From sequence record PZ338877.1: 64,000 nucleotides of DNA; one strand, written 5' to 3'. The position numbers and the translations under genes are program-made. This stretch comes from a phage. Of this stretch, positions 15,467 through 60,265 are shown one piece after another (positions within the stretch are counted from its first letter, which is position 1; the number at the start of each line of letters is the position of its first letter). The notes under the pieces were generated by a model, which did not search any database, was not told where the DNA came from, and saw nothing but the letters and a program-made list of their open reading frames with translations.

Positions 15467-15511
15467 TTTTTGCAGTAATGTATGTGGTTAATGATTTTAG
15501 AGGGAGTAAAA

Positions 15512-18211
15512 ATGGAAAACGTAGATTTTAAAAACTTACATTTAGTTGGTGATACAGAAACTGATGGTTTACTCCTTGAGTTCACTAAAGTGCACGTAAT
15601 GGCTTTCGCAGACTATAAATCTGACGATGAAGAGCCACCTGTATGGGTCTTTACAGATGAGCCTATCCTCGGTCACAAGTATACCAAGTACATTAAGGGT
15701 GGTTTGCGTGAAGGTGTTGAGTTTGCGTTAAAGGCAAAACGACTTTGCATCCATAATGGTCTGGGGTATGACTGGTGGGTTTTCAATCACATTGCACCTG
15801 ATTTGTGGAACTTTGATAATCCAAAGTGTAAGCCGTGGAGTAATTTCTTTCAGGATTCTCTTATCCAGTCTCGTGTTCAGTGGATGGATAGACCAACTCC
15901 AAAGGGCTATAAAGGTGCTCATGGTTTGGCTGCATGGGGTGCTCGTGTTGGTGTCCGTAAACCAGAGATTGAACATTGGGGTGTGTGGAATGCAGAAATC
16001 TTCACTCGTGTTGTAGAAGATATCCGTATCAACGCCAAAACTAAACGTGCATTGGATAATGAATATCTGAAGCTAAAGAAGTGTGGCGTAGACACCTATG
16101 AAACCTATATGCGAGCTAAAGAGACATCTTTCTGGATGAGTCAACAGGCTATCAATGGTTGGAAAGCTGATAAAGAGCTTATGGAGTTCCATGTAAAGGA
16201 ACTTGACAAGTTGACTAATGAGCTTGCTTCAGAAGTTGAACCACACCTTCCACCAACTATTAAGACCAAAGGTAAAGTCACTGGAGAAGAGTTTGCAAAA
16301 GCTTGGAATGAGTATGTTGAAACATTCGGTCATGCAGATGGACTGAAGAGAATTACCAAGTACCCTAAGACAAAGTATCGTCAACAGGTACGTAACGGTG
16401 AGATGCAGACATATGAAATCAAGCCATTTGGTAAACCAACTACAAAGATTTTTAACATTGAAAAGAGAAATTGCTATACACCAACCAACTCTGTAACTGG
16501 TGAAGAGTACAAGGAAGGTTTTGTAGCAATGAAGGATGCTCGTGCAATTTGCAATGAGTTGAACGCAAAGATTGGTAAGAAATGCAAAGACTGGAAGCCA
16601 GTAAAAACAGTTAAAACTGTGAAGTACTATAACAGTCATGTTGTTAACCACTTTGAGCTTGAGTCAAGTCGCTACACAGGTTTGATTGATGCACCATATA
16701 CACCAATTGAGTTCGAAGTTTCTCGTATGACTCAGGTAGCAGTTGTTAAAGACTACTTGAAATCAGTTGGTTGGATTCCAGATGACTGGAACTACAAGAA
16801 AGACTCAGATGGTCGTCCTGTTAAGGTTTGTCGTTTTAAAGACAACAAAAAGATGATTACAAAACATCCTAAGTGGCAGGAGATGGTTGAACGGTGTGGT
16901 TTGAGTTATGTTGAACATGAAGGTGTCCAGTACATTGAGCATAACTGGTCTGTGAAGAAGTACACAGATTTGCTTGAACCTTGCTTAATCCGTACTTCAC
17001 CAAAACTTACTGAATCATCTTATGATACGATTGAAGGTGAGCTTGGACAGAAGATTGCTAAGTACTATACTTTGATGCACAGACGCAGAACTATTGAGAA
17101 CTCAAAGGATGATGAAAAAGGTTGGTTGAACCAGATTCGTCCTGATGGTCGCCTTAGTGCTGGTGCAATGGTGTTTGGTACTTCAACTGGACGTATGACA
17201 CAATATGGTATTGTAAACGTACCGTCTGGTGCTGCTGTCTATGGGGAACCAATGAGGGCAGTGTGGATTTGTGAAGAAGGCACTAATGTTGTCTCTGTAG
17301 ATATGAACTCAGCCCAGCTAGTTCTTCTTTGTAACTTTATGGGTGACAAAGACTTCACCAAAGCGGTAACGCAAGGTAAAGAAGAGATTGAGTTTATTCG
17401 TCAAGAAGATGGACGCTATTACTGCAAACACTTTGATGAGTACCTCAACCCAGAGATTGATAAGTACCTTCGCTATGACTCTGAGAATGACCTTTACGTT
17501 GTCTATTCAGGGACTGATGCACACACACTGAACAGTATTTACTTTAGCTTGAATGATGAGCAGGATATCTTGACTTGCCGAGCTACTCAGGATGAGAACC
17601 TTCTCCATGAGATTAGCAAGGGTCGTAAGAAAGCTAAGAATGGTATCTATGCACTGCTGTTCGGTGCAGGCGATGAGAAGTTTGCTAAGACGATTAAAGC
17701 TGCAACTACTCAGGAAGGCGCACTGACTAAACAGACTTACTTTATTCGTTTGCCTAAAATTAAGAAACTGCTAGATGACTTGGAAGCTGACTACAAAGCG
17801 ACTAAAAAGGCACTTGAAGAGGTGTTTGGTAAGACTGCTGCAATCTCTAAAGGGGGTTTTGTAAAGGTTGCTGGAGCTTGGTTGTGGTGTAAATCTCCAC
17901 ACAAACTGTTGAACTATCTTTTGATGGGTTCAGAGGCGCAGATTCAAAATGAGGCAATTAACCTTGCTTGTCGTCGTATGATTGACGAAGGTTTGATGAA
18001 GTTGAATGGTCGTCAACCAGCTATTGGTGCTCGTTTGCTCTGCGCATATCACGATGAGACGAGTTGGGAATGTCCAGAAAGTATGACGGCAGATGTGAAA
18101 GCAGTTACTGACTGGTATTATGGACAAGCTTCTAAAAACTTAGGTCTTAAGAAAGAAACACTTGTTACAGGTACTGGTAAGGTTGGTAAAAGCTGGCTTG
18201 AGGTGCACTAA
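15512..18211 (+). CDS. DNA polymerase, family A (Pol I-like) with 3'-5' exonuclease domain
   Basis: Exo I motif GDTETDG; motif B KKAKNGIYALLFG; motif C YHDE; AGGGAG RBS before ATG at 15512. Confidence 0.88.
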   Translation: MENVDFKNLHLVGDTETDGLLLEFTKVHVMAFADYKSDDEEPPVWVFTDEPILGHKYTKYIKGGLREGVEFALKAKRLCIHNGLGYDWWVFNHIAPDLWNFDNPKCKPWSNFFQDSLIQSRVQWMDRPTPKGYKGAHGLAAWGARVGVRKPEIEHWGVWNAEIFTRVVEDIRINAKTKRALDNEYLKLKKCGVDTYETYMRAKETSFWMSQQAINGWKADKELMEFHVKELDKLTNELASEVEPHLPPTIKTKGKVTGEEFAKAWNEYVETFGHADGLKRITKYPKTKYRQQVRNGEMQTYEIKPFGKPTTKIFNIEKRNCYTPTNSVTGEEYKEGFVAMKDARAICNELNAKIGKKCKDWKPVKTVKTVKYYNSHVVNHFELESSRYTGLIDAPYTPIEFEVSRMTQVAVVKDYLKSVGWIPDDWNYKKDSDGRPVKVCRFKDNKKMITKHPKWQEMVERCGLSYVEHEGVQYIEHNWSVKKYTDLLEPCLIRTSPKLTESSYDTIEGELGQKIAKYYTLMHRRRTIENSKDDEKGWLNQIRPDGRLSAGAMVFGTSTGRMTQYGIVNVPSGAAVYGEPMRAVWICEEGTNVVSVDMNSAQLVLLCNFMGDKDFTKAVTQGKEEIEFIRQEDGRYYCKHFDEYLNPEIDKYLRYDSENDLYVVYSGTDAHTLNSIYFSLNDEQDILTCRATQDENLLHEISKGRKKAKNGIYALLFGAGDEKFAKTIKAATTQEGALTKQTYFIRLPKIKKLLDDLEADYKATKKALEEVFGKTAAISKGGFVKVAGAWLWCKSPHKLLNYLLMGSEAQIQNEAINLACRRMIDEGLMKLNGRQPAIGARLLCAYHDETSWECPESMTADVKAVTDWYYGQASKNLGLKKETLVTGTGKVGKSWLEVH

Positions 18212-18272
18212 TTAGTATTGACAAGGTGCTCATGGAAGAGTACCTTATACAATATCTTATATAGGAGGGCTT

Positions 18273-18482
18273 ATGAGCCACCGTGGAAGAACCCATGCAG
18301 CGATGATGAAAGGTGCTTCAAAGGAAACTATCAAGAACCGTAAGCAGAAGTTGTTTGAGAGGATGAACAGACTAATTGACAATTCATCTCTTTCAGGTTC
18401 TGAGAAGGTTTTCTTGAAAGGTAACCTGAAAAGCATTGCACAAGAGCTTATTGATATTGAATATTGGAGACACCAAAAATGA
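18273..18482 (+). CDS. hypothetical protein
   Basis: 69 aa, AGGAGG RBS; preferred over antisense ORF 18257-18511. Confidence 0.5.
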   Translation: MSHRGRTHAAMMKGASKETIKNRKQKLFERMNRLIDNSSLSGSEKVFLKGNLKSIAQELIDIEYWRHQK

Positions 18483-18691
18483 CACTTGCAGACGTTATCC
18501 AGCAACTTCACGACAATTGCTATACTCCAGAGTTGATTCAGGAGATGCTTATTGTAGTGATGCCTAGCAAGTTCGTAAAAGGTTTTAATCGTGATTATTT
18601 AATGTCTGCGCATATCATTATCGTTGACGGTAAGATTGCAAGAGACCGCACAGGAGTCCTTAAGGGTGAACGTATTAGTATTGACCTCTGA
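18479..18691 (+). CDS. hypothetical protein
   Basis: start at ATG overlapping previous stop (ATGA), GGAG RBS. Confidence 0.45.
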   Translation: MTLADVIQQLHDNCYTPELIQEMLIVVMPSKFVKGFNRDYLMSAHIIIVDGKIARDRTGVLKGERISIDL

Positions 18692-18708
18692 GTATTGGGA
18701 ACACCAAA

Positions 18709-18864
18709 ATGAAACGCAAAGTAAAATTCTTTAGTTTATATGGAAGGGTCGGTAAAGGTTTTGATTGGCAACTGTTACGCTCAGATGTTAAAAGCAACGA
18801 ATTAGCACAACTCATCATAAACTACCGGCGTACATACAGAGAAGTAGAACATCGTGAACAATAA
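18709..18864 (+). CDS. small protein (51 aa)
   Basis: below track threshold; MKRKVKFFSLYGRVGKGFDWQLL...; preceded by same TATTGG(R)(R)ACACCAAAAATG context as previous gene. Confidence 0.3.
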   Translation: MKRKVKFFSLYGRVGKGFDWQLLRSDVKSNELAQLIINYRRTYREVEHREQ

Positions 18865-18879
18865 AACAGGAGATGTGTT

Positions 18880-19116
18880 ATGTGGAAAGCAGTAATTGCA
18901 CTTGGTGTTATTTTTCTAGCTGGCTGCAACCCTTCTTATGAGGATAAAAATGCTTCTTATAGCCTCCCACCAGAGATGCAAGATTGCAAAGTCTATAAGT
19001 TACATGGTGATGCCATAAGCAGAGATATTGTTGTTGTCAGATGTCCAAACTCTCAAACAACAACATCTTATAGCTATGGCAAAAATGGTCAATCACACAC
19101 TACTGTTATTGAGTGA
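18880..19116 (+). CDS. small lipoprotein (candidate superinfection-exclusion or receptor-masking protein)
   Basis: 78 aa; signal peptide with lipobox LAGC (MWKAVIALGVIFLAGC); CAGGAG RBS. Confidence 0.55.
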   Translation: MWKAVIALGVIFLAGCNPSYEDKNASYSLPPEMQDCKVYKLHGDAISRDIVVVRCPNSQTTTSYSYGKNGQSHTTVIE

Positions 19117-19126
19117 GGTTTTCAAG

Positions 19127-19333
19127 ATGGAAGTCCTAGTAAACTATATCTACTGTTATGATGTTGTTCACTCCACTACAACCGTAGCTCAACGTAACCC
19201 AATCGTCCCACGAGAAGGTGAGTTGGTTCGAATCGAGGGTTGGACTTACACTGTGGAAAGCATCATTCATAAGTTTGATGTTGCTGGTGATGTTCAAGTT
19301 ATTGACGTAGAGATTGGTGGTAAGAGAAAATGA
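19127..19333 (+). CDS. hypothetical protein
   Basis: start at MEVLVNY with GAGTGAGG RBS. Confidence 0.4.
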   Translation: MEVLVNYIYCYDVVHSTTTVAQRNPIVPREGELVRIEGWTYTVESIIHKFDVAGDVQVIDVEIGGKRK

Positions 19334-19548
19334 CTGTAGAAGATAAATTTAAGAACGCAGTTCTTACAGAAGATGGTGAGCTTGAAACATTCATTCTTCG
19401 TGTGGATGGTAAGCTATTCCGGTGTCGTTGTGGGTCAAACTGTTTCCATAAACCAGATAAAAATGACTTAGAGCTTTACGCATGTAATGCTTGTTACACT
19501 TGGTATCACTCAGAGGTTAAAAATGACAATTCTGTACAAACAAAATAA
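19330..19548 (+). CDS. zinc-ribbon protein
   Basis: 72 aa with CRCGSNC...CNAC cysteine pairs. Confidence 0.45.
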   Translation: MTVEDKFKNAVLTEDGELETFILRVDGKLFRCRCGSNCFHKPDKNDLELYACNACYTWYHSEVKNDNSVQTK

Positions 19549-20623
19549 AGACGGCTCATTCAACGTCTGGTCATGCATTGCTGTAGGTGACAAAGTTATT
19601 ACAACCTACGGTAAAGAAAATGGCAAGATGATGTTTGAGGAGTACACAGCAGAACCGAAGAACATTGGTAAAAAGAATGAGCGTAACGCTGAACAGCAAG
19701 CTCTCTTTGAAGTTGCTGCTAAGTATAAAAAGCAAGTTGACCGCAAGGGTTACGCTTACACAAAAGAGTCTGCACAGAACACTGAAAAGGTAGGTGTACA
19801 GCTTGCTCACGATGCTGCAAAGGTTAGCCATGCAAAGTATCTGAAGTTCCCTGCTGATGCTCAACCAAAACTTGATGGTGTACGTTGTAGAATTTCAAGA
19901 GATGCTGATTCAGTTAGCTTCACGGCTTATTCTCGTGAGAATACTGTTTACAACGTCCCAGCAGAACTAATCCCAGATTTACTTTTGTTGCTTAAACTGC
20001 ATCCACAAGTTGAAGACTTTGATGGTGAGATTTATGCTCATGGTTGGGACTTAGAAGATATTGTGTCTATGATTAAGAATGCTGACAACCCAGAACGTCA
20101 CCTTCTTAAATTCTACTGGTATGATATCTGTGACAATTTAAAAACTTGGCCTGAGCGTCGTGAAATTATTGATAGCTCACCCATTATTGAGCTTGGTGAT
20201 ACCTGTAGAGTAGTTCCTGTACAGACTATCCGTGTTAACTCTTGGGAAGAGTTTGATGAAGCTCATGATAAGTGGGTTGAAGCTAAGTTTGAAGGTGCAA
20301 TGTACCGTTCAATCTCTGAAGACTCCTTCTATGAGTGTTGTCACCGTTCATACTTCTTGATTAAGCACAAGAAGATGCACACTGAAGAGTTTAAAGTGAC
20401 TGGTGTCAAGACTGATAAACGTGGTCATGGCAAGTTCGTTGTAGAGACTCTTCCTAACGTTTTTGTAGATGTCTCATGGAAGACTACTCATGAGAAGAAA
20501 CAGTATCTTGCTGAGCATCCTGAAGAGTTTATCGGGAAACCTTTAACGGTTCAGTTCCAGAAGATGACTCGTAAAGGGTCTTTACAGTTCCCTGTTGGTC
20601 TCGTTATTAGGGATTATGAATAG
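19523..20623 (+). CDS. ATP-dependent DNA ligase
   Basis: nucleotidyltransferase motif I KLDGVR (compare T7 ligase KYDGVR); about 366 aa. Confidence 0.8.
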   Translation: MTILYKQNKDGSFNVWSCIAVGDKVITTYGKENGKMMFEEYTAEPKNIGKKNERNAEQQALFEVAAKYKKQVDRKGYAYTKESAQNTEKVGVQLAHDAAKVSHAKYLKFPADAQPKLDGVRCRISRDADSVSFTAYSRENTVYNVPAELIPDLLLLLKLHPQVEDFDGEIYAHGWDLEDIVSMIKNADNPERHLLKFYWYDICDNLKTWPERREIIDSSPIIELGDTCRVVPVQTIRVNSWEEFDEAHDKWVEAKFEGAMYRSISEDSFYECCHRSYFLIKHKKMHTEEFKVTGVKTDKRGHGKFVVETLPNVFVDVSWKTTHEKKQYLAEHPEEFIGKPLTVQFQKMTRKGSLQFPVGLVIRDYE

Positions 20624-20811
20624 TGAAAAGAGAGATTATCAAGTTTACAAATCCGGGTGGCTGTTGTCCGGTTCATGATAAGTACCCTAGCAACACTTAC
20701 AAGAATAGGCGCTCTATCAAGAAGAGGTCACTCTTTATTAAGAAAGAGCACAGGCATGTGAGGCGGGTCGTTAAGCAAAATCTTCATAAAACTTTATTAG
20801 AAAGTTGTTGA
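20623..20811 (+). CDS. hypothetical basic protein (GTG start)
   Basis: 62 aa ORF using GTG start; lysine/arginine-rich; weak support. Confidence 0.2.
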   Translation: MKREIIKFTNPGGCCPVHDKYPSNTYKNRRSIKKRSLFIKKEHRHVRRVVKQNLHKTLLESC

Positions 20812-20865
20812 CATAGAAAATTTGGTGAGTATACTGAGCAGCATAAACCAACGGGTACTCACCAG

Positions 20866-20904
20866 CATCACTTAAGGGTCTTCTAAGAGGGTTTTTAAGT
20901 GATG
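20866..20904. repeat. 39-bp palindromic element, copy 1
   Basis: CATCACTTAAGGGTCTTCTAAGAGGGTTTTTAAGTGATG; near-identical copy at 22396-22434. Confidence 0.8.
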
Positions 20905-21035
20905 TACGGCAATGCAAGGCTAGGTCCGGTTATGTCAGGTCGGGTCCGGTTAGGTTCTGTGCGGGTAGTTAGTCTCAGCTACATTAAAATGAGACTTACC
21001 TTTTTAAAAGGTCTTTAAACAGGGTCTTTTAATAA

Positions 21036-21118
21036 GGTTTGGTCTGGTAGGGTAGGTTGGGGTAAGGTTAGGTAAGGTGAGGTAAGGTCGGGTTTAGTAT
21101 GGTATGGGTGGATGGTAG
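21036..21118. repeat. G/T-rich tandem short repeats (GGTNNG units)
   Basis: GGTCTGGTAGGGTAGGTTGGGGTAAGGTTAGGTAAGGTGAGGTAAGGTCGGGTTTAGTATGGTATGGGTGGATGGTAG. Confidence 0.8.
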
Positions 21119-21197
21119 TAGCCACGTTAAAAATCTACCAAGTTTCTAAAGAGTCTTCTGTTGAGGGTTCTTTACAAACAACTTAACAATCAACTAA

Positions 21198-21803
<606 letters not shown>

Positions 21804-21805
21804 TT

Positions 21806-22246
21806 ATGAATACAAAAGCATTAGCAGCAAAGTTTAGTTACGGTGACACTGTATCACATTCTGAGATGGACACCTTCTTAGGGATTGTGAAGCCAACTTA
21901 TCAAGGTGACATTGTTAAGTACGAAGATGAAATGAAGGCTTATGCGCTTACACGTCTAAACCGACTTGAGAAGTTTATTGAGAAGCTTCTTAAAGAAGAG
22001 AAGATTTATCTGGTTGCTTCAATGGGTGTTGGTTATCGTGTGGTTGAACCTAAACATCAAGCAACTATTGCAAAACGCAAAATGTCTGGTAAGATTGGTC
22101 GTGCTTTAAAGCAAGCCACTCAAGCGATTGAGAATGTGAATACTATGGCACTTAGCCACCAAGAACGTTCACGACTAATTGAACAGCAAAACCACTTAGC
22201 TGCTATGAAAGCTAACATTAACAAGCAACGTAGAAAACCTTTCTAA
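21806..22246 (+). CDS. hypothetical protein (cassette gene 2)
   Basis: 146 aa; followed by strong terminator. Confidence 0.5.
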   Translation: MNTKALAAKFSYGDTVSHSEMDTFLGIVKPTYQGDIVKYEDEMKAYALTRLNRLEKFIEKLLKEEKIYLVASMGVGYRVVEPKHQATIAKRKMSGKIGRALKQATQAIENVNTMALSHQERSRLIEQQNHLAAMKANINKQRRKPF

Positions 22247-22257
22247 GTTGACTAGGT

Positions 22258-22280
22258 AGCCTCTTCGGAGGCTCCTTTTT
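22258..22280 (+). terminator. rho-independent terminator
   Basis: stem AGCCTC/GAGGCT with TTCG loop then TTTTT. Confidence 0.65.
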
Positions 22281-22310
22281 AAAAGGTCTTTTAAGAGGGT
22301 CTTTTAATGA

Positions 22311-22365
22311 GGTAAGGTGCGGTCTGGTAAGGCATGGTATGGTTGGGTGAGGTGAGGTATGGGTA
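22311..22365. repeat. G/T-rich tandem short repeats
   Basis: GGTAAGGTGCGGTCTGGTAAGGCATGGTATGGTTGGGTGAGGTGAGGTATGGGTAG. Confidence 0.8.
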
Positions 22366-22395
22366 GTTAATCGGAGCTACATTAAAATTCGATTA

Positions 22396-22434
22396 CATCA
22401 CTTAAGAGTCTTCTAAGAGGGTTTTTAAGTGATG
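22396..22434. repeat. 39-bp palindromic element, copy 2
   Basis: CATCACTTAAGAGTCTTCTAAGAGGGTTTTTAAGTGATG; 10-bp arms CATCACTTAA/TTAAGTGATG. Confidence 0.8.
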
Positions 22435-22437
22435 CTC

Positions 22438-22512
22438 GGTCGGGTTTGGTCGGGTTTGGTAGGGTGTGGTTCGGTATGGTGTGGTTTGGTGTGGTATGGT
22501 ATGGTATGGAAG
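22438..22512. repeat. G/T-rich pentamer-like tandem repeats (GGTNT)n
   Basis: GGGTTTGGTCGGGTTTGGTAGGGTGTGGTTCGGTATGGTGTGGTTTGGTGTGGTATGGTATGGTATGG. Confidence 0.8.
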
Positions 22513-22545
22513 GATGGCAGTAGCCTTATAAAAAATCTGCCAAAT

Positions 22546-22589
22546 AAGCTATAAAATCTGTTGACAAGTCAGGTGTTATAGCTTATTTT
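22546..22589 (+). promoter_or_regulatory. sigma70-like promoter with overlapping operator-like inverted repeat
   Basis: TTGACA (22561-22566) - 17 nt - TATTTT; flanked by 8-bp inverted repeat AAGCTATA/TATAGCTT; about 45 nt upstream of 22634 gene. Confidence 0.35.
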
Positions 22590-22633
22590 TATACTCAATG
22601 TAATACAAAATTTAATATAACTTTGAGGTCATT

Positions 22634-23017
22634 ATGAAAAAGATTTTATTAGCTGCTGCAATGGTTATGGCAATGAATTTATCAGTCAATGCAACAGAAC
22701 TCCCCAATGTGGACTTATCAGGTGTTCCAGAAGACACTTGCCAGATTGTAAAAGGTGTCGCTCTAGCTAATGGCGAGCTACTTAAACCAATCTCTGAAGA
22801 ATCTTTAACAGAGATGACGGATAAGGTAACTGACTATCAGTATCGTGTTCTTGCAGAGTATTTCCTGCAATCTGCAAACATTAAAGAGAAGCACCATGAG
22901 GATATTGATGTACAGGCTATGCTCAATCATCGTATTCAGTTTAAAGAAGATTTGATGCAAAAAGCTATGTACGGTGTTGAGTATTTCTTAGAAAACAGAA
23001 GCTGCACAGGTATTTGA
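22634..23017 (+). CDS. secreted/periplasmic protein
   Basis: 127 aa; N-terminal signal peptide MKKILLAAAMVMAMNLSVNA with A-x-A cleavage context. Confidence 0.5.
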   Translation: MKKILLAAAMVMAMNLSVNATELPNVDLSGVPEDTCQIVKGVALANGELLKPISEESLTEMTDKVTDYQYRVLAEYFLQSANIKEKHHEDIDVQAMLNHRIQFKEDLMQKAMYGVEYFLENRSCTGI

Positions 23018-23018
23018 T

Positions 23019-23231
23019 ATGGCTCTTAAAAAGTTACATCCCAGAAGCGGTTATGGTAAGATAATTGATGATACAGACGGCTTTACAGTCTTTACAGTTA
23101 TCTGTCAAGATGATTCACAGATTGAAAAGGCTCTTGATGATTATCTTAATGATGAACGTGAAAAGGTTAGGGCTACAAACATAGATTCATTGATTGACAC
23201 TTCACGCAAACGGAAGAAGAAAGATGAATGA
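23019..23231 (+). CDS. hypothetical protein
   Basis: 70 aa, basic C-terminus. Confidence 0.4.
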   Translation: MALKKLHPRSGYGKIIDDTDGFTVFTVICQDDSQIEKALDDYLNDEREKVRATNIDSLIDTSRKRKKKDE

Positions 23232-24413: not shown

Positions 24414-24674
24414 ATGAAAATTGAACACTGCTATGAGTCTGATGGAACACCTATCCGTTGTCCACATTGTGGATGTACAGACTTGCAAGGTGAAGTTCAT
24501 GTGATTGTTAATGGTCATATAGCTGAAGAAAGTACTACATGTGTTGGTTGTGGTGAGCATCTATCATTCTGGGCTTATGGTTCATACCAACCTACACCAC
24601 ACTTAATCTACCATAGTAATAAAGCTGTGAAGAATGTTATCAACTGGTTCATTAAGAAAGGATTTATAAAATGA
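24414..24674 (+). CDS. zinc-ribbon protein
   Basis: CPHCGC...CVGCGE cysteine pairs. Confidence 0.45.
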   Translation: MKIEHCYESDGTPIRCPHCGCTDLQGEVHVIVNGHIAEESTTCVGCGEHLSFWAYGSYQPTPHLIYHSNKAVKNVINWFIKKGFIK

Positions 24675-25216
24675 TTAAACTAATTTTTGCAAGTGGTGAA
24701 AATGGGGAGTTTGGTACTCCAACTGGTATGCCGTGGCCTCGACATAAACAGGACATGCAAGAGTTTAAGAGGCTCACTAAAAATAACTTAGTAGTGATGG
24801 GTAATGAGACTTTTAAGACTCTGGGGAGTAAACCTTTACCAGAACGTGCAAACCTCATCTTAACAAACTCTGTACCATACTTAGGCATAGACTTTGGCAA
24901 AGATGAAGTAATGTATGCTAAAGCCAGCAAAGAATCCTTTGGAGCATTTTTGAAGTATCTTGATAGCTCTATTGATGAAGATGTCTTTGTAATTGGTGGT
25001 GCAGGTGTCCTTGTCGATGCTTTACCGTATGCTGATGTAGTGTTCCATACAGTTTTCCATAAAGTTACTGAAGAGGCCACTGTACATTTACCTTTTGAAA
25101 ACTTCTTTGAGAAGTTGTATGATAACCGTGTATTTACAAAGGTACAGTCAAAACCATCAGAGGATGGTAAAGCAACTTTTGAAATTTATGTTCCACAAGT
25201 AAAAGGACAATTTTGA
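24671..25216 (+). CDS. folA: dihydrofolate reductase
   Basis: 181 aa; N-terminal IFASGENGEFG...MPWP motif typical of DHFR; directly upstream of thymidylate synthase. Confidence 0.8.
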   Translation: MIKLIFASGENGEFGTPTGMPWPRHKQDMQEFKRLTKNNLVVMGNETFKTLGSKPLPERANLILTNSVPYLGIDFGKDEVMYAKASKESFGAFLKYLDSSIDEDVFVIGGAGVLVDALPYADVVFHTVFHKVTEEATVHLPFENFFEKLYDNRVFTKVQSKPSEDGKATFEIYVPQVKGQF

Positions 25217-25217
25217 T

Positions 25218-26117
25218 ATGTCACAAGCAGATTCGAGTTACAAAAATATCCTGAACCATGTTTTGTCAGTTGGTGAACTGCGTACTACACGAACTGGAGA
25301 TGTTATCTCTGCATTTGCTCCACCTCAGTTTCGTTTTGATATGCGAACTGGTTTCCCGCTCTTAACATCTAAACAGGTGTTTACACGGCAAGTTATTGGG
25401 GAAGCTTTATGGTTCCTGAATGGTGAGAATAAGCTGGGTGAACTCCGTTACCGCACTTGGGGTGAAAATGATGGAGAACGTTGGACTATCTGGTCAGATG
25501 ATTTTAAACGCTGGTTAAGCTCTAATTATTCTTCTGAACAGGATTGGTTAGAGGATGCAGGTGGAAGAATCTACGGAGTTCAGTGGAGAAACTTTGAAGG
25601 TCATAATGGTTGTGTTGTAGACCAGTTAGAAACCTTAGTAACAAAGATGAAGGGTGATATCACAGACCGTTACATGCTAGTTAATGCTTGGAATGCAGCA
25701 GATATTGCAGCAAACTCAATGGCTTTAGCACCTTGTCATGTTCTGTTTCAGATTTATATCACTAATGAAGGTGAAGTTGACTTACAATGGTATCAGCGTT
25801 CAGTAGACACCTTTTTAGGACTTCCGTTTAATATTGCATCTTATGGTTTTATTCTGGAAGTTCTTTGTAAGATGACTGGATACACTCCACGGTACTTGAT
25901 AGGTGTCTTTGGAGATACTCAGATTTATCAGAACCATATGAAGCAGGTTTATGAACTGATGAGCAATGAAGAGTTCCATGCACCTACTTTTGAGATTGGT
26001 CTACAACTTAATACTTTAAGTGACCTGAAACATCTCACTGCAAGTGACTTTATTGGTGGCATTATCAACTACCAACATGCAGGGAAGATTGAAGCACCTT
26101 TGTCAGTAGGTAAATAA
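25218..26117 (+). CDS. thyA: thymidylate synthase
   Basis: 299 aa; active-site region ALAPCH and conserved ThyA-like blocks; ORF uninterrupted (no intron). Confidence 0.85.
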   Translation: MSQADSSYKNILNHVLSVGELRTTRTGDVISAFAPPQFRFDMRTGFPLLTSKQVFTRQVIGEALWFLNGENKLGELRYRTWGENDGERWTIWSDDFKRWLSSNYSSEQDWLEDAGGRIYGVQWRNFEGHNGCVVDQLETLVTKMKGDITDRYMLVNAWNAADIAANSMALAPCHVLFQIYITNEGEVDLQWYQRSVDTFLGLPFNIASYGFILEVLCKMTGYTPRYLIGVFGDTQIYQNHMKQVYELMSNEEFHAPTFEIGLQLNTLSDLKHLTASDFIGGIINYQHAGKIEAPLSVGK

Positions 26118-26798: not shown

Positions 26799-29144
26799 TT
26801 AAGCAGTTCTTACCCAAGCCATTAACTTGTAGAACTGGTTAGTAACACTAAATGCTGAACCAGAACCTGTACCCCCAGTGTTACCACTTACTGTGTGACT
26901 GTGAGCACCAATACCAACTGAGTGAGCGTGGTTACCAGCAGACGCAGCAGTACCACTTACAGAGTGGGTGTGAGCACCGTTAGCATCAGTGTAACCCGGC
27001 CCTGAACCAACGTATGCACCACCACCACCAGAATAGTGCTGTGAGTTCTGACCAATCCACGAAATAGAGTGGTTGTGGTTACCAGCAGATGAAGTAGAGC
27101 CACTTACAGAGTGACTGTGAGCACCAGTTGTGTTAGTGTTTTTTGTTCCGTAGTCAAAAGATGAAGTGGTAGCAGAAAAACTGTGAGTGTGTGAAGGCAA
27201 GTTCCCAACAGCTAACGTCACAGAGTCTGAACCACCAGTTGTAGCAACATCTGAACCGTTTGCTGCTGCAATTCTGATAGTTCTACCAACACCATTGTTG
27301 AGGTACGTCCAAGTTAGACCAGGCAGTGCTGTATTAGGGTCAACATTACTGTTAAACCATGTCACAATACCCACTGGATAGATTTTATTAAGGTCTGTAG
27401 AATCACTTACTGCCTGTGCAATCTTCTGGTCAGTTTCAGTTTTAGTGTATGCACCAAGCTCTGAAGGGGTTGGTTTAAATGCCGTTGAATACAACTGTGC
27501 AGTTCCAACATATTCTCCATCTGACCCATAAGCATATGTGAAGACATCAAGACCTTTAGACCCATATGTAAAAGAAATACCTCTAGCATGAGCAATACCA
27601 GCAGAATGTGCTACATGGATGGCTAAATCTTTCATACCCTGCTCAATATCGTTGTTTCTTACAAACCCTGAATAGTCTTTATTGAATGATGCTGTGTCAT
27701 CCAACCTATTAGTTGTCCTTACCATTAAAGATTGGTTTAACAGTTTTGTTTTTAAGAAATATCTAGCATCAATGTTAGTCCAATCTGAAGGCTGAACTTG
27801 ACCAATGATTTTCACATTTTTATTCAACAAGAAAACATCTTGCATATAAATCGTAGTTGCAGTGCTGCTGTTATGGATAATAAGTCTTTCTGGGTTGGAT
27901 GATTCCCCATTCCCAATGTACCACCTTCTAACACCATCAGCATTATGACCAGCAAAGTATAGCTCTCCGTCTTGTGTAGTATTCTTTAGCTGTAACAATG
28001 AGCCATTCTGATTAATAATCTGTGCAGACCTGAAAGTGTTCACATCACTTAACTTAGCAAGATTACTCAAAGTTCCTGCTGGGATGTATCTAGCGTCAAT
28101 GTTAGTCCAATCTGAAGGCTGAACTTGACCAGTGATTTTCACAGTCTTAGTAGTGGTAATCACATTTGACAAAGAGATAGTTGTACTCGTGGTGTAGTTA
28201 TGTAGGTTGACTACAGAATCAGAGTTATCAGTCCCTAAGTAGAACTTGTTTGTCCCATCAGCTTTCTGACCAAGCAGGTATAGCCCAGTTGCATCAGAGG
28301 CATTTTTAATAACTAGCACAGCATTATCTCTAGTGATATTGAACTCTCCTACAAAATTATTAATACCCCTGAAGGTGTTATTACCAACTAGCTGTGCAAA
28401 TCTCTGATTAGCTGCCGTCTGTGTGAAGTATCTAGCATCTAAGTTAGACCAATCAGAAGGTTGAACTTGACCAGTAATCTGGAGAGACTTGTTCACAGTG
28501 ATTAAGCTATCCAAAATAGCTACATATGCACCAGATTTAACATTTTTTAAAACAAGATTGTCTGTACCTTTGTTATCATTACCTAGATACCACCTGTTAG
28601 TACCATCTGCATCTTGACCGCGAATATACAGCGGCATTCCTTGTGTAATATTCTTAACAATAATAGTTTCATTATCAGATAGAATATTTTGAGTACCTCT
28701 AAAGGTGTTACTTGCAGCCAATCTTGAGTATCTTGCATCATTCTCTTCATTAGTTCTCATCCCAAGCTCATTAGGGCTTGGCTTATTCAGAGTATGATAA
28801 ACAGTTGCCGACCTTGAAGCATCTGCAATAGTTAGTTTAAGGCCATTTGCGTTAATTTTAAAAGTCTTTAAAACATCCCCGATATTAATCTCAGAAGAGC
28901 CTGTTGGGTCAAAGACTGCCTTACCACCATAAAGTAACTTAACAATCCCTAAGTCACCCGTCATAGTACTACCAGCAATCTGGACAAATCTCTCAAGCTT
29001 AAAAGACGCTAAGAAGTCTTGATAGGTCATTCGACGGTCTTCATCACCTAGCATTTCAGGTCTCTTTTTAACCCTGACATGGAGAAGGTCGTCTGAACGA
29101 ATTGTATCAATTGAGTTTAATTCACTCAACTTGTAATCTGCCAT
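26799..29144 (-). CDS. long tail fibre with HxH-rich distal tip
   Basis: about 782 aa from internal ATG ([10 protein letters not shown]) with AAGAGG RBS; three tandem ~110-aa repeats each ending QVQPSDW(S/T)N(L/I)DARY; C-terminal Gly/Ser/His-rich HxH repeats. Confidence 0.7.
27700..28750 (-). repeat. three tandem ~330-bp intragenic repeats in tail fibre gene
   Basis: near-identical DNA blocks TATCTAGC(A/G)TC(A/T)A(T/A)GTTAG(T/A)CCAATC(T/A)GAAGG(C/T)TGAACTTGACC at 27762, 28087, 28429. Confidence 0.8.
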
Positions 29145-29190
29145 TATAAATTTTCCTCTTAAAAGGGGCTTTATAGCCCCTGTAAAGAAA

Positions 29191-30339
29191 TTAAGCTGTT
29201 CTCTGCCATACATACAATACGAAGGATGGCTGTTCAACACTAAATGCTTGACCAGAACCAGTTGTACCAGTTGTACCAGAGTGTGAATGCTCACCTGCTC
29301 CGGTTACTGTTACTGTTGCTGAGTGGTTGTGGGAACCAATTGCAACAGTATGGCTGTGAGCACCAATACCAACCGTGTGATTATGCGCACCAATTGCTAC
29401 AGAGTGAGTGTGGTTGTTAGCTGTTGTCAATGTAGCTCTTGGGTCATAGCTTGCCCCCTCAACCGATAAACCTCTCCAGCCACCATCAGCATAGCCACGG
29501 TTAATGAATGTTGTTTGTGTTAAACCAGCAGAACTTGTTGTTCTGTTGCCATAGTCATAAGTAGATACGGTCTTGGTTCCGTAGTCAAACGTGGTAGTTC
29601 CTTTAGTACCATAATCAAAAGCACTGATAGAGGCCGTTGCACCATGAGTGTGACCACCACCAGTGACGTACACTGAGTGGGTATGTGCAGGGATGTTATT
29701 AACCGTCAGTGCAGTAGTCTGTGAACCAAACGTTGAACCAACTGGCCTAGAATCACTATCATAACCTACAAGTGCTCTCCCTTTTGAGACTAACTCCCAA
29801 GTACCTCCACAAATTAAATATGTAGAGGGGTTTGCAGGATTCATAGAGAGATGGATAGTACCTACTGGATAAGAAGCCTGAACAGCCTTGTACAAGTTAT
29901 TTACTGCTCTTGCTGTAGCATACTTATCTGCATCTTCATTATAAAGGTTAGATGTTGTCCAGTTCTGGACATTACTTAAACCAACCTGTGCCTTAGTTGT
30001 ATTGTGTGGGTTGCTCTTGTCATTAATATGCTCTTGAATAAGGCTATTAACCTCTTCTGAAGACATAATCTGGAGATTTTTTCTTGCCTCAGCTACATTA
30101 ACAATATCTGATAAGTTATTTGCAGCGACTAACTGAAGAGCATTAATAACATTATCTAAACCAATTTGTGTCTTAGTAACACCATGAGGGTTATTTCTTA
30201 GGCTTGAGTGTGGAGCAAGTAATTGCTCAAGAGTACATCTCTTATCCTCAATACCCTGCTTAAGATGGAAGATATCACTAAGGTCAATTGGTAAGGCTGC
30301 TTGAGGCAAGGCACTAATTTGAATTTCACCTACTGCCAT
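29191..30339 (-). CDS. tail fibre / receptor-binding protein with HxH-rich tip
   Basis: 382 aa; C-terminal HTHSV...GAHNHTV...GAHSHTV repeats and C-terminal end homologous to long fibre. Confidence 0.65.
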
Positions 30340-58920: not shown

Positions 58921-59801
58921 TTAAAGCAAAGACTTACCCAGACTTCAAAGAATTTGTAAAGGGCTTCATTGCAAATGTAAAAGCTGGTAAGAGATATGAT
59001 TTTAGAACATATCAAGAAGCTATTTTACCACTCACCTATAGCTCATATTGGCCTGAAGCTGATATTGCAGAGGTTAAGAAGTTTGACTACAAACCAGACT
59101 ACAAAGTTCCTTTTAGTGATGAACTCCTTTACAGTGTTGGCGCACAGATGAGAACTGCTGATTTCTTCATGGATTTACAGTATGTAATCATCAACGGTAA
59201 AGATGTTGACACAATTTACTGTGAATGGTTGGCAAGAGTTAAGCCGTTCTCAATGCTGAATGCTAAGTTGAAAGATGCCATCACACCACCATCAATCACT
59301 CAGCAACCAACAAACCAAACAGTCAATGAAGGTGGAACGCTTACTCTAAGTGTTGTTGCATCTAATGCCACTGGTTATCAGTGGAAGAAAGATGGTGAGG
59401 ACATCTCCAGTGCCACTTCTGCAACTTACACAAAACAATCCGTAGCGCCTGCTGATGCTGGTTCATATACTTGTGTTGTATCTGGAGAGGGTGGGACAAG
59501 TGTCACCTCAGATGCAGCAACAGTGACTGTGAATGCCTTACCAGTTATCACTCAACAACCATCCAATCAAGAAATCACTGAAGGTGATACCTTAACACTG
59601 AGTGTTGTGGCAACAGGTGCAACAGGTTACCAGTGGAAGAAAGGTGAGGAAGTCATCCCAGACGCAACTGCTGCAACTTACACTAAAGAAGGTGCAACCG
59701 CTGCTGATGCAGGAAGCTACACCTGTGTAGTAACTGGCGCAGGTGGCTCTGTAACATCTAATGCAGCAACAGTTACAGTTAACCCAACAGGGGAGGCATA
59801 A
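58917..59801 (+). CDS. protein with two tandem immunoglobulin-like domains
   Basis: 294 aa; C-terminal half has two about 83-aa repeats (...TLTLSVVA..ATGYQWKK.GE.I..AT.ATYTK...A.AADAGSYTCVV.G.GG..TS.AATVTVN) with I-set-like W and C. Confidence 0.6.
   Translation: MIKAKTYPDFKEFVKGFIANVKAGKRYDFRTYQEAILPLTYSSYWPEADIAEVKKFDYKPDYKVPFSDELLYSVGAQMRTADFFMDLQYVIINGKDVDTIYCEWLARVKPFSMLNAKLKDAITPPSITQQPTNQTVNEGGTLTLSVVASNATGYQWKKDGEDISSATSATYTKQSVAPADAGSYTCVVSGEGGTSVTSDAATVTVNALPVITQQPSNQEITEGDTLTLSVVATGATGYQWKKGEEVIPDATAATYTKEGATAADAGSYTCVVTGAGGSVTSNAATVTVNPTGEA
59281..59780 (+). repeat. tandem ~250-bp intragenic repeat encoding Ig-like domains
   Basis: two near-identical DNA/protein units. Confidence 0.7.
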
Positions 59802-60265
59802 TGCAACTCTCAAGAAAAGGTTTAGAAGCCATTAAGTTCTTTGAAGGTCTGAAGTTAGAGGCTTACGAAGACTCTGCCGGAATCCCAACAATTGGGTATG
59901 GTACAATCCGTATTGACGGAAAACCTGTTAAGATGGGTATGAAAATTACTGCTGAACAGGCTGAACAGTATCTTCTTGCAGATGTTGAGAAGTTCGTTGC
60001 AGCAGTGAATAAAGCTATCAAGGTTCCAACTTCTCAGAACGAGTTCGATGCACTTGTAAGTGAAACATACAACATCGGTATCACAGCTATGCAGGATTCT
60101 ACATTTATCAAGCGCCACAATACTGGTAATAAGGTAGGTTGTGCAGAAGCTATGCAGTGGTGGAACAAGGTTACAGTCAAAGGTAAGAAGGTCACTTCAA
60201 ACGGCCTGAAAAACAGACGTAGAATGGAAGCTGACATTTATCTTGACAGTGTATATCCAAAGTAA
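59801..60265 (+). CDS. endolysin, GH24 lysozyme
   Basis: 154 aa; catalytic triad spacing E-x8-D-x5-T in FEGLKLEAYEDSAGIPTIGYG; no N-terminal TM. Confidence 0.8.
   Translation: MQLSRKGLEAIKFFEGLKLEAYEDSAGIPTIGYGTIRIDGKPVKMGMKITAEQAEQYLLADVEKFVAAVNKAIKVPTSQNEFDALVSETYNIGITAMQDSTFIKRHNTGNKVGCAEAMQWWNKVTVKGKKVTSNGLKNRRRMEADIYLDSVYPK

What the first reader, a model, noticed from the sequence alone, without database searches (positions are those of the whole stretch)
18880..19116. 78-aa phage lipoprotein, candidate superinfection-exclusion factor
The product has a lipoprotein signal peptide with lipobox LAGC, a good RBS, and lies in the early plus-strand block, not next to lysis genes, and is not proline-rich like o-spanins. 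Small early lipoproteins in virulent phages often mask the phage receptor, as with T5 Llp and Cor-type proteins.
Basis: partly seen in the sequence, partly recalled or inferred. Interest (0 to 1): 0.5.

Follow-up and report, generated by a model that had tools for sequence, protein, structure and literature searches.

The report
Widespread small phage lipoprotein, function unknown
This is a real 78-residue lipoprotein gene of a Felix O1-like phage, belonging to a large uncharacterised family (DUF4884 / phrog_902) found in many unrelated virulent phages; it is unrelated to the T5 Llp and Cor receptor blockers, and excluding further phage infection is plausible but unproven.

Summary
ORF 18880-19116 (+) has an AGGAG ribosome-binding site 7 nt upstream, a 15-residue signal peptide with lipobox L-A-G-C, clear purifying selection, and lies between the DNA polymerase and DNA ligase genes of a Felixounavirus. 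The endolysin is 41 kb away.

- The protein belongs to phrog_902 / Pfam DUF4884. This family has at least 1,244 clusters at 50% identity, and all annotated members examined are unnamed or generically named.
- The family occurs in Ounavirinae, T4-like, T5-like, Vequintavirinae-like and jumbo phages of Enterobacteria, Vibrio, Aeromonas and Acinetobacter, always as a single gene with no conserved neighbour.
- The lipid-anchor Cys and two further Cys at fixed spacing are invariant, within the motif LPxELxDCKVY…VVRCPNSxTTT.
- Without its signal peptide it shows no similarity to T5 Llp or T1 Cor.
- It is not next to a receptor-binding gene, and near-identical copies sit in Salmonella and E. coli phages.
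- Ounavirinae have a separate spanin pair, so it is not a spanin.

Best guess (about 0.3): an envelope-anchored, disulfide-stapled β-domain that binds a conserved periplasmic component, most likely to block secondary infection after adsorption. No function has been shown.

The parts
18868..18872 (+). Shine-Dalgarno sequence AGGAG, 7 nt upstream of the ATG
   Evidence: Read directly from the sequence.
18880..19116 (+). Coding sequence of the 78-aa prolipoprotein, a member of phrog_902 / DUF4884
   Evidence: ORF list. phrog_902 match, E = 3.7e-17. PF16225:DUF4884 in the precomputed gene table. Third-position substitution bias 86/38/232.
18880..18924 (+). Signal peptide, residues 1-15 (MWKAVIALGVIFLAG): K3 n-region and a 10-residue hydrophobic core
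   Evidence: Sequence. Every full-length homologue has an equivalent N-terminus.
18916..18927 (+). Lipobox L13-A14-G15-C16. C16 is the predicted lipid-modified first residue of the mature protein. N17 at position +2 is not a Lol-avoidance residue, so the outer membrane is predicted.
   Evidence: C16 is invariant in 66/66 aligned homologues. The distribution of +2 residues is. The sorting rule is from established E. coli knowledge and was not tested.
18928..19113 (+). Mature domain (62 residues after the lipid Cys), predicted as a small all-beta unit of two hairpins
   Evidence: AlphaFold2 model of the mature part: strands at mature residues 5-7, 22-26, 35-39, 45-51 and 54-60, mean pLDDT 68. 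No fold relative was found.
18964..18999 (+). Conserved motif L29-P-P-E-M-Q-D35-C36-K-V-Y-K40 (family consensus LPxELxDCKVY), containing the first invariant non-lipid Cys
   Evidence: D35 and C36 are invariant in A2. The lipid-Cys to Cys distance is 20 residues (5th-95th percentile 18-22) across the family.
19030..19065 (+). Conserved motif V51-V-V-R-C55-P-N-S-Q-T-T-T62 (family consensus VVRCPNSxTTT), containing the second invariant Cys. C36 and C55 flank an antiparallel hairpin, so a disulfide is likely.
   Evidence: C55 is invariant, and R54, P56, N57, S58 and T60 are at least 90% conserved. Cys-Cys spacing is 18 residues (16-20). Strands 37-41 and 50-54 pair in the model. The disulfide is inferred.

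Best explanation
The gene encodes a real, exported, lipid-anchored mini-protein of the phage family DUF4884 / phrog_902.

Shown at the sequence level: a translated ORF under purifying selection; a Sec/SPase II-type signal peptide with an invariant lipobox Cys; and a 62-residue mature part with two further invariant Cys at fixed spacing and two strongly conserved motifs.

Inferred:
- After Lgt/LspA/Lnt processing, the Felix O1-type protein (Asn at +2) is carried by Lol to the inner leaflet of the outer membrane.
- DsbA closes a C36-C55 disulfide that staples a beta-hairpin.
- The tether is only about 12 residues, so the domain sits close to the membrane facing the periplasm.

The family is spread as a stand-alone gene through many unrelated virulent phage lineages, and the same motif is kept across different host genera. 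I therefore propose that it binds one conserved periplasm-exposed component of the Gram-negative envelope, or of incoming phage ejection machinery, rather than a phage-specific receptor.

The most likely benefit is to make the already infected cell refractory to further phage genome entry or envelope damage. That would be superinfection exclusion, or protection from lysis from without, acting after adsorption. It would resemble T4 Sp/Imm in logic, not Llp/Cor. The gene is expressed with the DNA-replication genes and is dispensable for growth.
For: - Gene and lipoprotein features.
- Family membership: phrog_902 E = 3.7e-17, and 66/66 aligned members hit phrog_902. PF16225:DUF4884 is recorded for this exact protein and nearly all homologues.
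- Family size: 1,244 50%-identity clusters at E <= 1e-3, 746 at E <= 1e-10, nearly all 75-140 aa.
- Phage distribution: Ounavirinae; T4-like Acj61, Aeh1 and PX29; T5-like Vibrio JSF10; Vequintavirinae (UPEC06) and similar ~142-150 kb phages (phiTE, CR3); Asteriusvirus and other jumbo phages; Acinetobacter phages of 44-104 kb.
- Rare in bacterial genomes: the motif VVRCPNS[QS]T gave one confirmed locus in one genome each of 185,579 species.
- Stand-alone module: all-against-all comparison of neighbours in 19 diverse loci found no recurring partner.
- Accessory and dispensable: frameshifted alleles occur in nature (P0013, P0014, P0059). Ounavirinae phage SUSP1 lacks the gene and carries a Tad2-like gene in the same slot, between the homologues of the 75-aa and 68-aa ORFs.
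- Conserved target rather than a variable receptor: the gene is present in all 21 Ounavirinae-like viral contigs, with mean identity 88% against 93-95% for polymerase and ligase. Near-identical alleles occur in Salmonella and E. coli isolates.
- Weak hint towards an exclusion context: in Acj61 the homologue lies directly upstream of spackle.
- Hint towards a periplasmic rather than outer-membrane-embedded target: homologues in E. coli jumbo phages (C-D-A) and in UPEC06 (C-D-Q) have Asp at +2, which is the E. coli inner-membrane retention signal. Felix-type proteins have Asn.
Against: - No experiment and no homology to any characterised protein supports any function.
- The annotated members examined are labelled 'hypothetical', 'Lipoprotein' or 'DUF4884 domain-containing'.
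- The structure model is only moderately confident (pLDDT 68) and has no informative fold neighbour.
- The spackle adjacency is seen in one phage only. In Aeh1, Phab24, JSF10, UPEC06 and the jumbo phages the neighbours are unrelated small ORFs.
- The slot in SUSP1 holds a probable counter-defence gene, which would fit a counter-defence role for the lipoprotein equally well.
- The local Pfam copy did not reproduce the DUF4884 hit, so that label rests on precomputed tables and on NCBI naming seen in a paper.
- Early timing, outer-membrane sorting, the disulfide and lipidation are all inferred.
Confidence: 0.3

Rival explanations
1. Llp/Cor-type receptor lock. The lipoprotein would bind the periplasmic face of the phage's own outer-membrane receptor and switch it to a form that cannot bind phage. 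This would prevent re-adsorption and the loss of progeny on cell debris.
For: Size and general architecture match T5 Llp (77 aa) and T1 Cor (75 aa): signal peptide, lipobox, and two more Cys in a roughly 60-residue mature part. All three have a loosely similar 'P-x-x-x-C-x-x-Y' start to a hairpin. 15 of 66 family members give weak hits to the Cor PHROG phrog_1119, best E = 1e-4. The gene belongs to a virulent phage and lies in a non-late block.
Against: With signal peptides removed there is no significant similarity (hhalign probability <1%), so the phrog_1119 and full-length hhalign signals may be signal-peptide matches; the phrog_1119 hit regions were not inspected. Cys spacing differs: here +20 and +39 from the lipid Cys, whereas in Llp and Cor it is about +8-10 and close to the C-terminus. 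The gene is about 7.7 kb from the nearest tail-fibre gene and on the other strand, whereas llp and cor abut the receptor-binding or tail-tip genes. The same motif is conserved in phages of different host genera and genome types. Felix O1-type phages are reported to recognise the LPS core rather than a TonB-dependent transporter (PMC8594841, plus general knowledge), and a periplasmic lipoprotein cannot mask LPS.
Confidence: 0.1
2. An envelope-directed host-takeover or counter-defence factor, not an exclusion factor. The lipoprotein would bind and neutralise a conserved host periplasmic or membrane component, such as an envelope-stress or defence sensor, a protease or nuclease, a cell-wall enzyme or a lipoprotein partner. 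Alternatively it would tune envelope stability or lysis timing for the phage's own benefit.
For: It is a stand-alone accessory gene in hyperplastic 'small early gene' regions of many virulent phages. In SUSP1 the same slot holds a Tad2-like (anti-Thoeris) gene, which marks it as an accessory or counter-defence hot spot. A conserved motif across host genera suggests a conserved host target. Asp+2 variants suggest the target can be reached from either membrane.
Against: There are no hits to PADLOC models or to any named anti-defence family. No known envelope-located defence is shared by all these hosts. No partner gene or structural analogue was found.
Confidence: 0.3
3. An outer-membrane spanin subunit or other lysis protein that disrupts the outer membrane at the end of infection.
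For: It is a small outer-membrane lipoprotein with extra Cys. 7 of 66 family members give weak hits to the Rz-like spanin PHROG phrog_456, best E = 6e-5, which may reflect the signal peptide or lipobox; the matched regions were not inspected.
Against: No type-II membrane partner gene overlaps or adjoins it. It is 41 kb from the endolysin. Ounavirinae carry a canonical overlapping i-spanin/o-spanin pair near rIIB (Mushroom gp091/gp092; SUSP1). It is not proline-rich and is predicted to be folded. No C-terminal transmembrane segment is present, so it is not a unimolecular spanin.
Confidence: 0.02
4. A non-functional or spurious ORF whose lipobox is a chance feature.
For: The protein is short, every examined record annotates it as hypothetical, and frameshifted alleles exist.
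Against: Strong third-position bias, a canonical ribosome-binding site, presence in all 21 Ounavirinae-like viral contigs, and at least 1,244 homologous clusters that keep the lipobox Cys and two other Cys.
Confidence: 0.02

Closest known systems
T5 Llp (lytic conversion lipoprotein) and the Cor lipoproteins of T1, phi80 and N15
   Same: A prolipoprotein of about 75-78 aa from a phage, with a lipobox, a mature part of about 60 residues containing two additional Cys, and expression before late genes. Llp acts from the periplasmic side of the outer membrane (PMC9586334).
   Different: The mature domain shows no detectable sequence or fold relationship. The Cys spacing is different. The gene is not linked to the receptor-binding gene. 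The family is conserved across phages of different host genera and genome types, rather than co-varying with a TonB-dependent receptor.
T4 spackle (Sp) and Imm, which act after adsorption on phage genome delivery
   Same: An early, envelope-located small protein of a virulent phage with a contractile tail. In the T4-like phage Acj61 the DUF4884 gene lies immediately upstream of sp. The proposed logic is the same: a block in the periplasm, independent of the receptor.
   Different: Sp is annotated as a periplasmic protein and, from general knowledge, Imm is an inner-membrane protein; neither is a lipoprotein. There is no sequence similarity. T4 itself has no DUF4884 gene at that position, because gp61.4 is unrelated.
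Pfam DUF4884 (PF16225) / PHROG phrog_902
   Same: This protein is a member: phrog_902 E = 3.7e-17, and PF16225 is recorded in the precomputed tables. NCBI already labels an 86-aa protein of an E. coli phage as 'DUF4884 domain-containing' (PMC12210894).
   Different: These are catalogue entries with no function attached. The local Pfam copy did not return the hit. A Bacteroides protein (BT_3183) also carries the label (PMC8931616), and its relation to the phage proteins was not examined.
o-spanins (Rz1 type)
   Same: Small phage outer-membrane lipoproteins containing Cys.
   Different: Spanins are encoded with or inside an i-spanin gene, and are proline-rich and largely unstructured. Ounavirinae have their own spanin pair elsewhere.
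Entry- or surface-exclusion lipoproteins of conjugative plasmids (TrbK, TraT) and the Gram-positive prophage lipoprotein Ltp (TP-J34)
   Same: Lipid-anchored small proteins that block DNA entry into a cell already holding the element. Ltp is thought to act on the incoming phage's ejection machinery rather than on the receptor (general knowledge).
   Different: The only similarity is at the signal peptide: TrbK_RP4 E = 0.03 over residues 9-43 of one homologue. These proteins come from different hosts and have different domain sizes.

Membership tests
Bacterial-type lipoprotein (Lgt/LspA substrate) | N-terminal signal peptide with a positive n-region, a hydrophobic core, and a lipobox [LVI][ASTVI][GAS]C within the first ~35 residues | tested here: met
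   K3, then A4-L13, then L-A-G-C16. It is the only non-shadow lipobox ORF in the six-frame scan of the window.
Bacterial-type lipoprotein (Lgt/LspA substrate) | Evolutionary conservation of the lipobox Cys | tested here: met
   Invariant in 66/66 aligned homologues. A strict regular expression finds a lipobox in 194/223 members, and most of the rest have atypical boxes.
Bacterial-type lipoprotein (Lgt/LspA substrate) | Actual diacylglyceryl modification and globomycin-sensitive cleavage | not testable with these tools
   Requires labelling or mass spectrometry.
DUF4884 (PF16225) / phrog_902 | Significant match to the family profile | tested here: met
   phrog_902 E = 3.7e-17 covering residues 1-76, and 66/66 relatives hit it. 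PF16225 is listed without a weak or faint mark for this exact protein. Caveat: hmmscan on the local Pfam copy returned no PF16225 hit.
DUF4884 (PF16225) / phrog_902 | Family signature: lipid Cys, about 20 residues, (D)C, about 18 residues, RCPNSxTTT, with a total length of 75-140 aa | tested here: met
   C16, D35-C36 and C55 are present and the motifs are intact.
Llp / Cor superinfection-exclusion lipoproteins | Sequence or profile similarity of the mature domain | tested here: not met
   hhalign of mature parts gives probability 0.3-0.6% and E about 0.1-0.2, against Llp-vs-Cor E = 4e-4 as a control. No PDB sequence hit, although per PMC9586334 a FhuA-Llp crystal structure exists.
Llp / Cor superinfection-exclusion lipoproteins | Gene placed next to the receptor-binding or tail-tip genes | tested here: not met
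   T5 llp is 80 nt from oad, and T1 cor follows the tail-tip genes. Here the neighbours are small ORFs between polymerase and ligase, and the nearest tail-fibre gene is about 7.7 kb away on the opposite strand.
Llp / Cor superinfection-exclusion lipoproteins | Intramolecular disulfide joining a Cys near the mature N-terminus to a Cys near the C-terminus | tested here: not met
   In Llp the Cys are at +10 and +58, and in Cor at +8 and +56, counted from the lipid Cys. Here they are at +20 and +39, closing a single hairpin.
Llp / Cor superinfection-exclusion lipoproteins | Cognate receptor is a TonB-dependent transporter, and the lipoprotein co-varies with the receptor-binding protein | tested here: inconclusive
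   The receptor was not tested. Literature places Felix O1-type recognition on the LPS core (plus general knowledge). Alleles 93-99% identical occur in Salmonella and E. coli isolates, which argues against co-variation. Tail-fibre sequences were not compared directly.
Llp / Cor superinfection-exclusion lipoproteins | Exclusion phenotype on expression | not testable with these tools
   Requires plating and adsorption assays.
o-spanin (Rz1-like) | Encoded within, overlapping or next to an i-spanin gene in or near the lysis cassette | tested here: not met
   The flanking ORFs have no transmembrane segment. The endolysin is 41 kb away. Canonical spanin pairs exist elsewhere in Mushroom and SUSP1.
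o-spanin (Rz1-like) | Proline-rich, largely unstructured mature part | tested here: not met
   4 Pro in 62 residues, and five beta-strands are predicted.
Plasmid entry-exclusion lipoprotein TrbK | Match to TIGR04359 above its cutoff | tested here: not met
   The best hit is E = 0.03, 14.3 bits against a cutoff of 23, in one homologue and over the signal-peptide region only.

The most novel reading that the evidence does not exclude
DUF4884 would be a receptor-independent, broadly used entry-blocking lipoprotein of virulent phages. It would be a tiny disulfide-stapled beta-domain, tethered to either membrane, that jams a universal periplasmic step of phage genome delivery or a universally conserved envelope factor needed for it. 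This would explain why unrelated lineages of myo-, sipho- and jumbo phages infecting Enterobacteria, Vibrio, Aeromonas and Acinetobacter all keep the same motif as a stand-alone gene. That would be a new class of superinfection exclusion, and it would point to a shared weak point in phage entry.
Probability: 0.2. Interest if true: 0.75.

Novelty: new variant of a known kind. Interest (0 to 1): 0.42.

Why it matters
Small phage lipoproteins are the best understood way a virulent phage closes the door behind itself, but the characterised examples (Llp, Cor) are narrow, receptor-specific families. This gene belongs to a much larger, uncharacterised lipoprotein family that crosses phage families and host genera. 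Two outcomes are possible:
- If it is an exclusion factor, it would act on something common to many phage-host pairs. That bears on the design of phage cocktails, because one phage in a cocktail could then shut out others, including the Felix O1-type phages used in biocontrol. It could also reveal a conserved envelope component needed for phage entry.
- If it is not, it is still a compact, conserved binder of some periplasmic target, and worth a simple expression screen.

Tried and rejected
- Pfam, NCBIfam and PADLOC scans of the protein and of diverse homologues gave nothing meaningful. The TrbK and LPAM/LptM hits cover the signal peptide only.
- PDB sequence searches with the single sequence and with the family profile gave nothing.
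- hhalign against full-length T5 Llp gave 87% probability. I rejected this as a signal-peptide artefact after trimming.
- I looked for conserved neighbours in 19 diverse loci and found none.
- I tested whether T4 gp61.4, which sits in the same position relative to sp as the Acj61 homologue, is related. It is not.
- The Llp homologue search returned only 4 close relatives, too few for a deep profile.
- I hoped to use the genome-wide CRISPRi-ART fitness map of the Ounavirinae phage SUSP1 (PMC11879866), but SUSP1 lacks the gene.
- Literature searches for DUF4884, PF16225, phrog_902, 'phage-encoded lipoprotein', and Felixounavirus or Felix O1 with lipoprotein, spanin or superinfection found no functional study.
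- Rfam on 18000-23200 gave nothing.
- The promoter scan gave no more sites than shuffled sequence.
Full report
**What is there.** The window is part of a Felix O1-like myovirus genome (Ounavirinae, Felixounavirus).
- The 4-kb stretch around the finding matches 263 phage records, the best at 92-95% nucleotide identity.
- The 78-aa protein is 100% identical to a protein of Escherichia phage CL1.
AGGAG lies at 18868-18872, 7 nt before the ATG. K3 and a 10-residue hydrophobic stretch lead to L13-A14-G15-C16. The mature part has 62 residues and only 4 prolines.
- The upstream ORF ends at 18864 and the next one starts at 19127, so the gene sits in a tightly packed run of small + strand ORFs between the DNA polymerase (15482-18211) and the DNA ligase (19487-20623).
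- The + strand block continues to DHFR and thymidylate synthase (about 24671-26117). It is followed by the minus-strand structural block, which begins with tail-fibre genes at 26799-29294.
- 'Early' is therefore an inference from gene content. No private promoter stands out, and promoter-like sites are no more frequent than in shuffled sequence.

**Is it more than chance?** Yes.
- A six-frame scan of the whole window, using every possible start, found only three other lipobox-like ORFs. All three are antisense shadows inside large genes and have no ribosome-binding site.
- Among 15 distinct alleles from related viral contigs, differences fall 86/38/232 on codon positions 1/2/3, and synonymous codon changes outnumber non-synonymous ones 194 to 110.
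- The gene is present in all 21 Ounavirinae-like viral contigs retrieved. Its neighbours, the 51-aa, 69-aa and 72-aa ORFs, come and go.

**The family.**
- The protein hits PHROG phrog_902 (unknown function) at E = 3.7e-17.
- The precomputed tables of the large protein collection list PF16225 (DUF4884) for this exact protein and for almost every homologue.
- hmmscan against the local Pfam copy did not return that family for any member. I take this to be a version difference: PF08139 is .17 locally and .18 in the tables. NCBI already names an 86-aa protein of an E. coli phage 'DUF4884 domain-containing' (PMC12210894).
- A profile search of 1.84 billion cluster representatives found 1,244 proteins at E <= 1e-3 and 746 at E <= 1e-10, nearly all 75-140 aa.
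- The alignment shows an invariant lipobox Cys, an invariant D-C about 20 residues later, and an invariant Cys a further 18 residues on. The consensus is LPxELxDCKVY … VVRCPNSxTTTxYxxGK … V(I/V)D.
- The distances are tight: 18-22 residues from the lipid Cys to the next Cys, and 16-20 between the two non-lipid Cys.
- AlphaFold2 gives a small all-beta unit of moderate confidence (pLDDT 68). C36 and C55 flank an antiparallel hairpin, so a disulfide staple is plausible.

**Where the family lives.** It lives in phages, and essentially in virulent ones.
- Lineages found:
  - Ounavirinae.
  - T4-like phages of Acinetobacter and Aeromonas (Acj61, Aeh1, PX29).
  - T5-like Vibrio phages (JSF10, and hundreds of ~114-kb Vibrio phage records).
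  - Vequintavirinae (UPEC06) and similar ~142-150 kb phages (phiTE, CR3, a Pantoea phage).
  - Asteriusvirus and other 350-380 kb jumbo phages.
  - Acinetobacter phages of 44-104 kb.
  - Metagenomic viral contigs of 64-381 kb.
- A scan of one genome for each of 185,579 bacterial and archaeal species with the peptide VVRCPNS[QS]T returned one confirmed locus, in Hylemonella. That pattern is narrow, but the same motif is common among the phage proteins.
- Names given by sources are 'hypothetical protein', 'Phage protein' or 'Lipoprotein'.
- An all-against-all comparison of the genes within 3 kb in 19 diverse loci found no recurring neighbour. One contig (L030) has two tandem paralogues.
- The gene is therefore a self-contained module sitting in the variable 'small early gene' regions of large lytic phages.

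**Testing the Llp/Cor idea.**
- I fetched T5 llp and T1 cor. All three proteins are about 75-78 aa, have a lipobox, and have two further Cys.
- hhalign of the family profile against full-length Llp gave 87% probability, but only over the signal peptide and the first few mature residues.
- After cutting both sides at the lipid Cys the probability fell below 1% (E about 0.1). Llp against Cor still scored E = 4e-4.
- The weak hits of 15/66 members to the Cor PHROG and of 7/66 to a spanin PHROG may be signal-peptide effects of the same kind; I did not inspect the matched regions.
- The Cys pattern differs: Llp and Cor tie the N-terminal region to the C-terminus, whereas this family staples one hairpin.
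- Gene position differs. llp is 80 nt from the receptor-binding gene oad, and cor follows the tail-tip genes. Here the nearest tail-fibre gene is about 7.7 kb away on the other strand.
- Llp works by jamming the plug of the TonB-dependent transporter FhuA from the periplasm (PMC9586334), and such lipoproteins are receptor-specific.
- In contrast, this family keeps one motif across phages of several host genera and genome types. Alleles 93-99% identical occur in phages isolated on Salmonella and on E. coli K-12, C and O157.
- Felix O1-type phages are described as recognising the LPS core (PMC8594841, plus general knowledge). A periplasmic lipoprotein cannot cover LPS.
- I conclude that this protein is not a member of the Llp/Cor family, and that a receptor lock is an unlikely mechanism.

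**Not a spanin.**
- The flanking ORFs have no membrane segment.
- The endolysin is at 59801-60265.
- Annotated Ounavirinae genomes carry a canonical overlapping i-spanin/o-spanin pair near rIIB (Mushroom; SUSP1). That region lies outside this window.

**Accessory character.**
- Frameshifted alleles exist in assemblies (P0013, P0014, P0059).
- The Ounavirinae phage SUSP1 lacks both this gene and the 51-aa ORF. Between the homologues of the 75-aa and 68-aa ORFs it carries a 70-aa protein that matches the Tad2-like (anti-Thoeris) Pfam family at E = 4e-5, 24.5 bits against a cutoff of 25.
- The slot is therefore a swap site for host-interaction genes, and the lipoprotein is not needed for basic growth.
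- This also means that the published genome-wide knock-down map of SUSP1 (PMC11879866) says nothing about it.

**A small but possibly telling detail.**
- Felix-type proteins have Asn at +2, which predicts outer-membrane sorting in E. coli.
- The homologues in E. coli K-12 jumbo phage Sharanji and in EC.P1 start C-D-A, and the one in the Vequintavirinae phage UPEC06 starts C-D-Q. Asp at +2 is the classical inner-membrane retention signal (established knowledge, not tested here).
- Across the family, 26 of 194 proteins have Asp at +2.
- If these proteins do the same job from either membrane on a tether of about 12 residues, their target is more likely something in or crossing the periplasm than the periplasmic face of one outer-membrane protein.

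**Most likely mechanism.** The steps shown are the gene, the signal peptide and lipobox, the conserved Cys and motifs, the family's distribution, the lack of partners, and dispensability. The steps inferred are lipidation, sorting, the disulfide, early expression, and everything about function.
- My best reading (about 0.3) is an envelope-anchored, disulfide-stapled mini-domain that binds a conserved periplasm-exposed component. The effect would be to make the infected cell refractory to further genome entry or to envelope damage by later-arriving phages. This is closer in logic to T4 Sp/Imm than to Llp. The position next to spackle in Acj61 is the only contextual hint, and it is a single case.
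- An equally live rival (about 0.3) is an envelope-directed counter-defence or host-modulation role, which fits the Tad2-like replacement in SUSP1.
- The receptor-lock reading gets about 0.1.
- The spanin reading and the spurious-ORF reading get about 0.02 each.

**Verdict.** The gene is an ordinary member of an already catalogued but functionally blank family. Its interest lies in the breadth of that family and in how easy the decisive experiments are, not in anything unusual about this copy.

Noticed in passing
window 20840-21200 and 22250-22560: Two intergenic regions carry GGT-rich pentamer arrays (GGTNN)n, for example 21040-21115 and 22438-22510. Each is preceded by the same 37-nt box, TCACTTAAGRGTCTTCTAAGAGGGTTTTTAAGTGATG, which has self-complementary ends (two exact copies, none expected by chance), and by a shared 'AGCTACATTAAAAT' box. 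Strong sigma-70-like promoters lie beside them (20808, 22561). There is no Rfam match. Function unknown.
   Followed up: partly
window 22634-23017 (+): A 127-aa ORF (phrog_4332, unknown function) begins MKKILLAAAMVMAMNLSVNA|TELP, which looks like a Sec signal peptide. It would be a second exported protein in the same + strand block, just after a strong promoter-like site.
   Followed up: no
L072 7009-7221 (-), Escherichia phage SUSP1 (KT454805): SUSP1 lacks the lipoprotein and the 51-aa ORF. In the same slot it carries a 70-aa protein that matches Pfam Tad2-like (anti-Thoeris) at E = 4e-5, just below the cutoff. This marks the slot as an accessory or counter-defence hot spot.
   Followed up: partly
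L065-L067 (T1-like viral contigs), residues 1-17 versus the rest: Three T1-like contigs have a lipoprotein with a signal peptide identical or nearly identical to that of T1 Cor (MKKLITII(A/T)AAFILTGC), joined to an unrelated mature domain (AQNLKNGDCVTYAYGSC…). This looks like modular swapping of the exclusion domain behind a fixed leader.
   Followed up: no
L073 1504-1755, L074 1459-1710, L004 4001-4267: Family members in E. coli jumbo phages (EC.P1, Sharanji) and in the Vequintavirinae phage UPEC06 have Asp at position +2 after the lipid Cys, and 'EAGC' in place of 'DC'. This predicts inner-membrane retention, unlike the Felix-type Asn+2.
   Followed up: partly
L030 6001-6297 and 6294-6620 (192-kb viral contig): Two tandem paralogues of the lipoprotein family lie side by side, both with lipoboxes.
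   Followed up: no
Protein collection versus local Pfam copy: PF16225 (DUF4884) is recorded for this protein and almost all homologues in the precomputed tables. hmmscan against the local Pfam-A returns no such hit, even at E = 10. This is probably a release difference.
   Followed up: partly
Phage records GU169904 (Staphylococcus phage SA1) and MG065664 (Campylobacter phage A132): Records labelled as Staphylococcus and Campylobacter phages contain this Felixounavirus gene at 95-96% identity. They are probably mislabelled or contaminated deposits. Several ~88-kb contigs labelled as Salmonella or E. coli assemblies are likewise whole phage genomes.
   Followed up: no
L052 4037-6770 and L053 6815-7342, relatives of window 15482-18300: Relatives carry homing-endonuclease genes (Endonuclease_7, HNH_3/AP2) inserted within or just after the DNA polymerase gene. 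In one of them the polymerase is called as a shorter 727-aa product. The window has an intact 909-aa polymerase.
   Followed up: no
L003 2652-2927 (Acj61) and L006 4208-4981 (Hylemonella): Other unrelated lipobox proteins lie within a few genes of the family member in Acj61 (MKYFAIALALLVSSGC…) and in the single bacterial locus found (…VGLTGCAGS…). The Hylemonella locus was not checked for prophage character.
   Followed up: no
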